64,000 nt of DNA from Eledone cirrhosa (Eukaryota), in assembly GCA_964016885.1 (NCBI GenBank), contig OZ024742.1:173724001-173788000 (forward strand), written 5' to 3'. Below are positions 17,821-23,200 of the stretch, one piece after another. Both the position numbers and the translations under genes were made by a program. Position 1 is the first letter of the stretch, and the number at the start of each line of letters is the position of its first letter. The notes under the pieces are model-generated. The model did no database searches. It worked only from the letters and a program-made list of their open reading frames with translations, and was not told where the DNA came from.

Positions 17821-18114
17821 TTCATTCGTATTTGGTCTGTTGTATTGTTAGCGCAAAGATAAAGTGGGATCACTTGGAATTGTGGGTGTCTTACCGCTTG
17901 GCAGAGTCTCGTAATTGTTGGTGATGAATTATCATTCTGTTTCTGAGTGTGAGTTTAGTTTGCCCTATATAATCTTCATTGCATCCTTTACATTTAATGG
18001 CATGAACTAAATTGTTTCATGAGCAAGTGAAGTGATGTTTTGCAACAAAATGTTGTCCTGATAGAAATGTATACATGGTACCTTCAATGAGGTGTTGTAC
18101 ATGGTGCATTCAAC

Positions 18115-18353: not shown

Positions 18354-19177
18354 CTAACTCTTTCACTCTTTCTCTCTCAGAATATCATATCCATGGATCT
18401 GTTTCTGCATATAGTAAAACACATTCATATCATTGATACTTTTGTGTCTTTGATAATAATCCAGTTAACCAAACAAGGGATATTAAGAATGTATTCAGTG
18501 CTAGTAGCTTCAGTAAAAACATGACATTCACAACCTTCTTCTTGGGTAATATTAACTAATATATAAATAATATGTGCTTTGTTTTTGACATTGTAAAATC
18601 TACTTTAATTACTAGAAATAAAGTCAAAATTCGTTGTAATTCTTGTTTTAAACCCAGTAGAACCCGATGGCACACAGTTTTGAGGAAACAAGTTTTCCAT
18701 GAATATTCTGTCGTTATCCAATAGATCCATATTGAAATGGAAGGAATTGACAGTTGAAAATAAAACATCAAATCCAGTGTTACGAAATTTTCTTTTGTGT
18801 ACTGCACACTATGCTATATATAACTTTGCTTAGCTCATCATCATACCTATCCCATGTCCCCATTAATCCCTTTTCTCGATACTTGACAATACTAAATGAT
18901 ATTTACTTATTGCTTTTCTGTTTTACAAAGTTATGTCAACTGTTGATTCCCATATTTTAACAACTTCCACTCTACCGGCAGTATCAGTAGAGGGTCGGAC
19001 GCCATACTTTACAACAAACAGTTACACATCTTTCCCGTCTGAGTTTAAATCCCGCTGAGGTTCACTTTGCCTTTCATCTTTACGGGGTCGATAAAATAGA
19101 GCACTAGTAACGCACTGGGATAACATTTGGCCTTGTGCCCAAAAAGAAGCAAATATTACATGAGAACAAAGAAAATT
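18115..19177 (+). repeat. ~1.05 kb block duplicated in inverted orientation at 57935-58990, including a SINE (18976-19157)
   Basis: Collinear reverse-complement match including the (CT)n/(GA)n tract and the SINE 3' flank aaatattacat. Confidence 0.85.
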
Positions 19178-19249: not shown

Positions 19250-19252
<3 letters not shown>

Positions 19253-19830
19253 TTCAAATAAAATGAAAACGAAATTTCATTTCTCACTCTTAGTACGGCA
19301 CTTACTTAAATGTAAGTATGTGTGTATACGTACATACATATATGTATACAGACGTACAGTAGCATGCATATATATATATACATACAGGTACACATACATA
19401 TATGCAAGTATCAGTTTAGCGGAAGCTTATTATAACGCCGCTTTGTTCGTTTGTAAACAAACTGAACAGCCTGAATTTTATGCCGTACGGTGTTAAGGTA
19501 ACCACGTCACCTTTTTGTTCAACACTAACACAGGAACGATGTACTAGTTTCAAGCTTGTTAGCTATCATCAGCACCGTATACCCATCTGCCAGATAGTTG
19601 AACGTTCGAAAGTATATATTTTCCTCATGAAAATTAACGGCTGAGCAGCCTAATTTGCATATCGAGTGAGCTGAGTCGGTCAGGCATACCGAAAACGATA
19701 AGTTGAAATAAAATGAAAACGAAATTTCATTTCTCACTCTTAGTACGGCACTTACTTAAATGTAAGTATGTGTGTATACGTACATACATATATGTATACA
19801 GACGTACAGTAGCATGCATATATATATATA
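19250..19830 (-). mobile_element. Retrozyme-like/PLE pseudo-LTR unit: ~450 bp monomer with ~130 bp terminal redundancy
   Basis: 19250-19380 is repeated almost exactly at 19700-19830; hammerhead inside; flanked by TA runs. Confidence 0.75.
19536..19578 (-). ncRNA. Minimal type I hammerhead ribozyme
   Basis: ACGGTG-CTGATGA-T AGCT AACA AGCT T-GAAA-CTAG-TA^-CATCGT: perfect core, 6 bp stem I, 4 bp stem II, one-bp stem III with palindromic CTAG loop, GUA triplet. Confidence 0.85.
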
Positions 19831-19834
19831 TATT

Positions 19835-20275
19835 AAAAAACTAATTACCAAGGCAAAATTTACGACCAACATGGAATCAATGCAAGTGACGAAATGCGGG
19901 GACCCTCGATGTGGAACCTGTGAACTCATCGAAGAGGGCAAACAGTTGTCATTCAAAAACCATGATAATTTCAAGGTCAATGCTAACATGAACTGCAAAA
20001 CGAAAAACCTAATATATTGCGCAACATGTCCACAGTGTAAAGAGTATTACATTGGGGAAACCGGAACAGGATTACATGATAGAGTCCGGGTACATAAACA
20101 ACAGATTAAAGACCCCACAGTCAGAAATACCACATGTAGCGCACACTTTGCATCATGCGGGAGGGAAAATTCACAATCTTCCCTTTCTTCAAGATATGGT
20201 CGGATAACTAACATTTCCGCAGATATAAAGAAGAATTCTTCATTGAAAAATTTAAACCACTACTGAACACGAAAA
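19835..20275 (+). mobile_element. 3' fragment of a second PLE family: zinc-finger linker plus GIY-YIG endonuclease
   Basis: KCGDPRCGTC, MNCKTKNLIYCATCPQCKEYYIGETG, RVRVH and SAHF; frameshift near 20165. Confidence 0.88.
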
Positions 20276-20379
20276 AATGAATTAACACTCGGAGGTAAAA
20301 ATGAATTAACACTCGGAGGTAAAATTCCATTTCACTACCCCACCCTCTTCTTATGTATACACATGAATATCTGAATGAA

Positions 20380-20545
20380 CGGTGAGACACACACATATGT
20401 GTGTGTAGGGATGTATGGATGTATGTACGTGTGGGTATATATGTATGTGGGTGTGTGTATGTGTATGTGTGTGTGTGTGTGTATATATATACATATATGT
20501 ATGGATGTGTGTATGTTTGTATGTGTGTGTGTGTATATATATATG

Positions 20546-20618
<73 letters not shown>

Positions 20619-20665
20619 GTGTATATGTACATGTATGTATGTGTATGTTTGTATATGTGTGTGCG

Positions 20666-20742
<77 letters not shown>

Positions 20743-21035
20743 ATAGATATGTATGTTTATGTGTGTGTGTATGTATGTGTATGTACCTATATATATGTAT
20801 GTGTGCGTGTGTATGTACGTGCATTTATGTATATATGTGTGTACATATGTGTATGTTTCTGTTTGTGTATATGTATGTATGTAGATGTATGTGTATATAT
20901 ATGTATATATATGTATATGTATGTGTATGTGTATATGTGTCTTCATGTGCTCTTATACGCACATATATATATGTGTATGTGTGTATGTATGTGTGTGTAT
21001 GTGTATATATATGTATATATATGTATGTATATATG

Positions 21036-21068
<33 letters not shown>

Positions 21069-21146
21069 GTACATGTATGTGTATGTATGTATGTGTGTAT
21101 GTGTGTATGTGTATGTGTATGTGTATGTATGTGTATATATATATAC

Positions 21147-21182
<36 letters not shown>

Positions 21183-21315
21183 GTATATGTATGTGTATAT
21201 ATATGTATATGGATATGTATGTATGTGTATATGTATGTGTATATGTGTGTATGTGTCTGTGTGTATTTATGTGTACATATGTATATATATATGTGTGTAT
21301 ATGTATGTGTATGTA

Positions 21316-21347
<32 letters not shown>

Positions 21348-21348
21348 G

Positions 21349-21381
<33 letters not shown>

Positions 21382-21518
21382 TGTATGTATGTGTGTGTGT
21401 GTGTATGCCTCTCTCTTTATATGTGTATATGTATATATGGATGTATGTGTGTATATGTGTGTGTATGTATGCATGTATGTGTGTATATATACATATACAA
21501 ACATACATACACACACAC

Positions 21519-22383: not shown

Positions 22384-23200
22384 TCATGGTCTTCTTCATG
22401 ATGAAATCGATGACTATGAGGAAAATGAAAGGCGAAAGGATGCAGCCTTGTTGAACCCTGGCCAAGATGTCAAACATTTCCGTGTTTCCGTCCCTTGTCC
22501 TAACGCACCACCTGAAATCTCGGTACACCGACCTGAAGATGTTAATATATTTCCATCATGGTTGGTCAGCGTAACATTGAATGGGTAAACCACTTCCAAT
22601 ACCTTGGCAGTAACATCTCTAGTGATGGGGATGCTGAGGTGGACGTGCACACAATGGTGGGAAAAGCAGCGGCGGTCTTCCAGCGACTCCGTCCGGTATG
22701 GTCCAGGTGTTCCATCGGTTACGCCGCCAAACTCGGTGTTTACATGTCCATTGTAGTACCAACAGCGATATATGCCTGTGAGACATGGAAGAGTACGGAA
22801 AGTGTATGTAACAACCTTCATGTATTCCACCGTAGTTGCATTCGGACCATATTGAAAATTTCATGGAGAGACCAAGTTAGCAACGAGGAAGTGATGAGGG
22901 GGTCAGGATTGGAGAGGTTAAAGGACATTGTCCGGAAAAGGAGACGGCGGTTCGCGGGCCACATCCTTCGTTTACCGGCAGATCGACCTGCTGATATTGC
23001 CATGGATTGGGTACCAGAAGGTGGCAGGAGAGAACGGGAAGACCACGAAAAACATGGCGGAGCACATTCAGGGAAGACCTGCGGGAGATGGGAATTACCT
23101 GCAGATGTGCTAGAAGGGCCGCCAGTGACAGGATCAACTGGAGGAAGTTCGTCGCCCAATGTTCCCCAAGGGACTGGAGGAACTAAGACTAAGACTAAGA
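22383..23200 (+). mobile_element. RTE-like LINE 3' fragment with an inverted 5' segment, inserted in (TA)n
   Basis: + strand 22558-23190: FQYLGS, YACETW, ILKISWRDQVSNEEV, FAGHILR, then a (CTAAGA)n tail. - strand 22383-22556: VQQGCILSPFIFLIVID. Confidence 0.88.

What the first reader, a model, noticed from the sequence alone, without database searches (positions are those of the whole stretch)
19250..19830. Canonical minimal hammerhead inside a ~450 bp terminally redundant non-coding unit (retrozyme-like)
Seen: ~130 bp terminal direct repeats, TA-microsatellite flanks, and a hammerhead with perfect core, palindromic CTAG stem III loop and predicted cut between 19542 and 19541 on the minus strand. 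Known: minimal type I hammerheads with a palindromic stem III mark PLE pseudo-LTRs and non-autonomous retrozymes, which can form circular RNA and cleave as dimers. Inference: a cephalopod retrozyme or solo pseudo-LTR family mobilised by PLEs; a GIY-YIG remnant abuts it on the opposite strand.
Basis: partly seen in the sequence, partly recalled or inferred. Interest (0 to 1): 0.75.

Follow-up and report, generated by a model that had tools for sequence, protein, structure and literature searches.

The report
Hammerhead retrozyme beside a Neptune fragment
This is one copy of an abundant 450-base non-coding repeat that carries a predicted self-cutting hammerhead RNA and was likely pasted into TA repeats by a Penelope-type transposon enzyme; it is a known kind of element, and the coding fragment beside it belongs to a separate family that is only a possible helper.

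Summary
Observation confirmed, with corrections. A type I hammerhead lies at 19578-19536 (-), predicted cut 19542/19541. It has a helix III, so it is not 'minimal', and a U.U pair closes helix II. The 136-bp repeats are not terminal repeats: the copy is 1.3 monomers of a tandem 450-bp unit. The 32-nt core has 10,672 exact matches in the genome. Of 80 sampled insertions, 47 are back-to-back arms in (TA)n, one ending at a 'long' site and one about 60 nt earlier. That is the Penelope 'tail' footprint, also shown by coding families here. No coding element carried this unit as its own end. 5' ends do not pile up at the cut site (3 of 129), and arms reach 10 monomers with shared alleles, so the template was circular or uncut RNA; no RNA data were available. 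The GIY-YIG is a separate Neptune-type family (N1), never abutting in the 80. Two TA-free N1 joins to the sister family make N1 a possible helper. Verdict: new member of a known kind (non-LTR retrozyme). The scan has noted such elements many times elsewhere in this genome.

The parts
19250..19699 (-). Complete 450-nt monomer of retrozyme family A (m1 = 19699, m450 = 19250)
   Evidence: 97-98% to the best 40 scored copies; 7 differences from the majority over 310 nt
19700..19817 (-). 5'-truncated upstream partial monomer (m333-450); produces the apparent 136-bp direct repeat
19536..19578 (-). Type I hammerhead motif; predicted cut between 19542 and 19541; U.U at the base of helix II; palindromic helix III
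19250..19309 (-). About 60-nt 'tail' between the short end (m390-393) and the long end (m450); this copy ends at the long site
19368..19380 (.). Internal (TA)n of the monomer, variable in length, and a target for later insertions in other copies
   Evidence: L189, L191, L240
19209..19249 (.). (TA)n target at the long end
   Evidence: 402 exact long-end/TA junctions of this subfamily
19818..19833 (.). TA tract at the junction with N1; could be the internal TA or target TA; the junction is unique in the genome
19833..20277 (+). 5'-truncated Neptune-type PLE (family N1): CxxC linker and GIY-YIG, frameshifted near 20161; a separate family
20278..21482 (+). N1 3' UTR (27-bp duplication, then TA/TG microsatellite); the N1 terminal region is absent from the window; end coordinate read by eye

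Best explanation
The unit is a non-coding 450-bp repeat with a predicted self-cleaving hammerhead (a non-LTR retrozyme) that is likely copied into (TA)n microsatellites by the RT/GIY-YIG protein of a Penelope-like element. Shown: high copy number, tandem arrays, TA targets, two fixed 3' ends about 60 nt apart, back-to-back arms, shared alleles within an insertion, and no 5' pile-up at the ribozyme cut. Inferred: the PLE protein nicks both strands of a TA tract and starts reverse transcription at two internal sites of the RNA, as shown in vitro for a Poseidon element (PMC11167929), one site per arm. The two cDNAs then join by short microhomology. The template is likely an RNA circle made by dimeric hammerhead cleavage and ligation (about 0.5), otherwise an uncut multimer. 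The window copy is a long-end arm of 1.3 monomers that stops in a TA tract. The N1 fragment is likely a separate insertion stacked in the same TA tract (about 0.75).
For: Copy number: 10,672 exact core matches. Architecture in 80 of the first 100 listed of 402 long-end sites: 47 two-armed with the short end, 10 two-armed with another second end, 15 single in the chain (at least 5 resume and finish at the short end after an interruption), 8 too short to class. End histogram: 64 long, 53 short, 21 other of 138 (biased to long ends by the sampling). Coding families show the same rule: N1 has one long and one short end in 10 of 10 copies with both ends visible; N3 and N4 also have two end sites. 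Inversion junctions overlap by 1-8 nt in 35 of 50 (BLAST overlaps). Diagnostic alleles agree in 913 of 930 same-arm and 273 of 282 opposite-arm comparisons, where random pairing would give about 348 and 101 disagreements. 5' ends within 5 nt of the cut: 3 of 129. Arms reach 10 monomers (L254). Ribozyme under selection: helices I and II keep pairing through double changes in sister families B and C, which align along the whole monomer; helix III is palindromic in 8 of 8 motifs without the descriptor asking for it; substitutions 1.0% in the motif versus 2.1% elsewhere; no variant at 5% or more at 19528-19583 in three runs of one sample. A dimer fold gains about 6 kcal/mol over two monomers.
Against: No cleavage, transcript or circle was shown. 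The U.U closing pair and the 2-bp helix III predict weak monomer activity, and helix I has only 0.13-0.56 pairing probability in the circular fold. The 81-nt motif does not fold better than shuffles (z -0.68). The within-family conservation test on 40 copies was not significant (Fisher p 0.22). In the preprint, 8 of 9 Xenopus retrozymes did not cleave. No helper with a homologous terminus was found. The covariation is partly by construction, because the motifs were picked with a pairing descriptor. The tail length (57-60 nt) matches N4 (about 64) better than N1 (35-41).
Confidence: 0.85

Rival explanations
1. Same element, but the template is an uncut linear multimer (read-through of genomic arrays, or template jumping), and the hammerhead plays no part in insertion.
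For: In vitro, hammerhead mutants did not affect Poseidon insertion and unprocessed RNA was the dominant substrate (PMC11167929). The absence of 5' ends at the cut fits this equally well. Arrays are homogeneous, so allele concordance does not exclude it.
Against: Most arms are shorter than 2 monomers, yet 5-10-mers persist, which needs some way to regenerate multimers. The motif is conserved across families A, B and C.
Confidence: 0.35
2. The window locus is one hybrid event: one arm primed on retrozyme RNA and the other on N1 RNA, so N1 is the helper of family A.
For: The geometry is head-to-head, as in two-armed insertions. TA-free joins of N1 to sister family B occur at L068 (about 200 nt of B running straight into the N1 RT) and L343 (a ~23-nt B-like filler at an N1 inversion junction, 17 nt exact, absent from N1). 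A two-template insertion exists: U103 has an A long end joined directly to the short end of another family.
Against: The window junction is a TA tract and unique. The N1 arm lacks both of its own ends. N1 was absent within about 3.7 kb in 80 of 80 family-A insertions, while N3 appeared in 4. Family A stood at 0 of 31 truncated N1 5' junctions in 40 copies taken in list order; the same configuration occurs with N5 (L339) and with B (L321, where both ends are short). Tail lengths differ.
Confidence: 0.25
3. The unit is the ordinary pseudo-LTR of an autonomous PLE that I did not sample.
For: Family N5 carries a hammerhead with the same U.U architecture about 390 nt after its endonuclease in 6 of 8 N5 loci. 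GIY-YIG candidates number 10,597 and only a few dozen were examined.
Against: No ORF was attached at the 5' side in 80 insertions. Monomers join head to tail with no coding sequence (524 exact junctions). No homology to the termini of N1, N3, N4, N5, P1 or P153.
Confidence: 0.08
4. A DNA-level satellite or inverted-repeat element spread by recombination.
For: Tandem arrays and variable TA tracts.
Against: Fixed polar 3' ends, scattered 5' truncations, inversions with microhomology, and the same footprint as coding retroelements.
Confidence: 0.03

Closest known systems
Metazoan non-LTR retrozymes (Cervera and de la Pena 2020, PMC7229834, passages read; Li, Clavereau and Pollet 2026, 10.64898/2026.07.22.740005, parts 1-3 of 5 read)
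   Same: Non-coding tandem monomers, GC under 45% (37%), one type I hammerhead per unit, co-occurring with PLEs. The axolotl motif HHR_Amex2 also has a U.U at the base of helix II.
   Different: 450 bp is at the upper edge of the reported 150-450 bp. No RNA evidence here. Strict TA targeting and two-armed long/short ends were not in the passages read. No parent pLTR found, unlike 24 of 57 Xenopus families.
EN+ PLE insertions with tail and inverted 5' copy (Craig et al. 2021, PMC8557442, passages; Frangieh et al. 2024, PMC11167929, main text)
   Same: Partial tandems, an inverted 5'-truncated arm, a tail at one end only, AT-rich targets, two initiation sites.
   Different: No ORF; the tail is about 60 nt rather than 30-40.
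min-HHR in PLE pLTRs (PMC4209133, passages)
   Same: Type I, palindromic positions 15.2-16.2, predicted to act as a dimer.
   Different: Has helix III, a 6-bp helix I and a 4-bp helix II; lacks G10.1-C11.1; not attached to an ORF.
Non-autonomous Chlamys elements such as MRC1 (PMC8557442, passage)
   Same: Non-coding PLE passengers with multicopy head-to-tail insertions.
   Different: Those generally resemble an autonomous family at the 3' end, and most Chlamys lack hammerheads.

Membership tests
non-LTR retrozyme | Type I hammerhead in each unit | tested here: met
non-LTR retrozyme | Tandem monomers of 150-450 bp, low GC, non-coding | tested here: met
non-LTR retrozyme | Dispersed and non-autonomous, not attached to an RT ORF | tested here: met
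   no ORF at the 5' side in 80 insertions; nearby PLEs end at their own termini
non-LTR retrozyme | Self-cleavage in vitro | not testable with these tools
   prediction only
non-LTR retrozyme | Expressed as linear and circular monomer RNA | not testable with these tools
   needs RNA data from this organism
PLE-mobilised element | Two 3' end sites (tail), inverted 5' arm, AT-rich target | tested here: met
PLE pseudo-LTR | Identical to the 3' terminus of a coding PLE | tested here: not met
   29 N1 loci, 30 short and 40 long GIY-YIG loci (partly the same places); sampling not exhaustive
min-HHR | No helix III; G10.1-C11.1 | tested here: not met
plant LTR retrozyme | Type III hammerhead in each of two LTRs | tested here: not met
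   type I, and it lies outside the repeated 136 bp
Neptune-type PLE (fragment N1) | RT, then CxxC linker, then C-terminal GIY-YIG | tested here: met
   (RVT_1 E 5.6e-10; GIY-YIG E 4.6e-4, under the cut-off); no tree was built, so Neptune versus Nematis was not resolved

The most novel reading that the evidence does not exclude
The young Neptune-type family N1, which shows no canonical hammerhead in its own terminus and no sequence homology to the passenger, copies circular family A/B retrozyme RNA round and round from two internal start sites. The window is a hybrid in which one arm came from each RNA. This would give a named enzyme-passenger pair for testing rolling-circle reverse transcription of animal circular RNAs.
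Probability: 0.2. Interest if true: 0.65.

Novelty: new member of a known kind. Interest (0 to 1): 0.3.

Why it matters
How animal retrozymes move is proposed, not shown. This young family keeps a clean Penelope footprint, and near-intact candidate helper ORFs exist in the same genome. The published in vitro PLE assay could therefore test directly whether a PLE protein primes on a retrozyme, and whether on a circle. As a finding it is ordinary: the class, the PLE link and the two-site tail are in print, and this scan has noted many such families in this genome.

Tried and rejected
No RNA holder was listed; this says nothing about expression. The three runs laid are contigs of one sample of unstated kind; their depths are not copy numbers and none bridged the junction. 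The whole-window Rfam scan gave only microsatellite-driven matches. A DNA search with the 3' end returned only the window itself because common words are skipped. L079 and L153 looked like pLTR-ORF units but are separate PLEs with their own ends in the same TA tract. The hammerhead near L064 is a separate family-B insertion. Three N3 neighbours end at their own termini before the retrozyme. Local alignment of the family-A end to five PLE ends was not significant. The idea that a looped-out hairpin reduces all tails to about 40 nt was considered by eye and dropped, because N4 has a ~64-nt tail. The circular-fold z of -5.7 is inflated by TA/TG repeats; the unique part gives -2.05 (sense) and -0.63 (antisense). 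A search with both parts together found no second locus with both in one match. Literature searches for a cephalopod retrozyme and for twin priming in PLEs listed no paper describing this family; I saw listings only, and supplements, Repbase and subscription journals were not seen.

Full report
Observation. The window holds a 136-nt direct repeat at 450-bp spacing with two mismatches, between TA tracts. On the minus strand, 19578-19536 reads as a type I hammerhead: 6-bp helix I, CUGAUGA, a U.U pair plus 4-bp helix II, GAAA, and palindromic ACUAGU, with the cut predicted between 19542 and 19541. Rfam support is weak (HH9, 19.1 bits), but the 32-nt core has 10,672 exact matches in the 3-Gb genome and the reversed control has none. 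By the definitions in PMC4209133 (passages) it is the canonical metazoan type, not a minimal one. PMC7229834 (passages) describes an axolotl motif with the same U.U that cleaves weakly alone and better as a dimer.

The unit. Other copies show head-to-tail monomers of about 450-550 bp, the variation lying mostly in an internal TA tract. The window copy is one monomer (19699-19250) plus 118 nt of the preceding one, so the 'terminal repeats' are partial-tandem redundancy. For the window's subfamily there are 402 exact long-end/TA junctions and 524 monomer-monomer junctions. I fetched 80 of the first 100 listed long-end sites, skipping some already held, clustered or late in the list. An automatic rule classed 47 as two arms back to back with the second ending at m369-397 (nearly all m388-393), 10 as two-armed with another end, 15 as single and 8 as too short. 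At least five 'single' ones resume after an interruption, in three cases an element nested in the internal TA. Ends followed by TA fall at two sites about 57-60 nt apart in 117 of 138 cases.

Mechanism. Coding PLE families in this genome show the same footprint: N1 has one long and one short end in 10 of 10 copies with both visible, and N3 and N4 also have two end sites. PMC8557442 (passages) describes the tail and the inverted arm. PMC11167929 (main text) shows that a Poseidon protein cuts and extends both strands of AT-rich DNA and starts at two internal RNA sites that define the tail. I infer the same chemistry here. Both arms normally come from one template: diagnostic alleles agree in 273 of 282 opposite-arm and 913 of 930 same-arm comparisons. 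Only 3 of 129 5' ends lie within 5 nt of the ribozyme cut, and arms reach ten monomers, so a cut linear monomer is not the usual template. A circle and an uncut multimer both fit; the same paper found unprocessed RNA to be the dominant substrate in vitro.

Is the ribozyme under selection? Sister families B (75-80% identical) and C (67%) align along the monomer, and helices I and II keep pairing through double changes. Across eight motifs from five families, 11 of 14 pairs change on both sides and helix III is always palindromic. The helix I and II part of that count is partly circular, because a pairing descriptor picked the motifs; U.U or another non-pair at 10.1-11.1 holds in 7 of 8. Within family A the motif varies less than the rest (1.0% versus 2.1%), but a site-based test on 40 copies was not significant (p 0.22). 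Activity is untested.

The neighbour. The GIY-YIG at 19833-20277 belongs to a young family, N1 (175 exact matches). Its full copies encode RT, a CxxC linker and GIY-YIG and end in an unrelated terminus in which my descriptor found no canonical hammerhead. The window fragment is frameshifted and lacks that terminus. The junction is a TA tract and is unique. N1 was not near any of the 80 family-A insertions, and family A was at none of 31 truncated N1 5' junctions among 40 copies taken in list order. Other TA-targeting elements stack against N1 in the same way (L339, L321). Nesting is therefore the simpler reading. Against that, two TA-free joins place family-B sequence at N1 5' junctions (L068, L343), and U103 joins an A long arm directly to another family's short arm. 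N1 can thus probably copy this RNA lineage, but its tail length (35-41 nt) fits worse than that of N4 (about 64). No coding PLE ended in this unit among the loci examined; the sampling is small against 10,597 GIY-YIG candidates.

Comparison and verdict. It meets the sequence-testable features of metazoan non-LTR retrozymes, and it fails those of min-HHRs, plant LTR retrozymes and, as far as sampled, ordinary pLTRs. A PLE origin for such elements is argued in 10.64898/2026.07.22.740005 (parts 1-3 read). Searches listed no paper on this family; supplements were not read. Earlier scan notes report many similar families in this genome. I had seen the two-ended pattern, before looking them up; one note prompted the further hybrid search. 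New member of a known kind; interest 0.3.

Noticed in passing
L062, L064, L065, L066, L061 (N1 copies): N1 has two overlapping ORFs (about 400 and 796 codons) with a TTTTTTA slippery-type heptamer in the overlap in 5 of 5 copies matched: a candidate programmed frameshift. L143 has one continuous 1096-codon frame. PMC8557442's Fig. 1 legend already mentions frameshifted ORF1 in PLEs.
   Followed up: partly
N1 copies L063, L068, L271, L321, L323, L326, L347: 5' truncations appear to cluster in a ~65-nt stretch of the RT region (7 of about 51 truncated copies, counted by hand and post hoc).
   Followed up: no
L105 / U103 (G000:C1:14.405 Mb): Two-template insertion: family-A long arm joined without TA to the short arm of another small TA-targeting family.
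   Followed up: partly
L142, L146, L147, L150, L158, L170, L182: Coding family N5 carries its own U.U-type hammerhead about 390 nt after the endonuclease.
   Followed up: partly
many loci: About ten further hammerhead families sit in TA tracts, most with a palindromic helix III; TA tracts collect stacks of elements.
   Followed up: no
L087, L104, L153 and other subfamily-2 copies: A second subfamily has private substitutions concentrated at m225-290, shared by monomers of an insertion.
   Followed up: partly
window 18977-19130: Very high-copy SINE-like repeat next to the target; it resembles an octopus SINE by my recollection only.
   Followed up: no
window 17894-18085 (-), 1538 (-), 22400-23190 (+): An older GIY-YIG remnant, a second hammerhead-like motif, and a LINE-like 3' fragment ending in short tandem repeats (by eye).
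   Followed up: no
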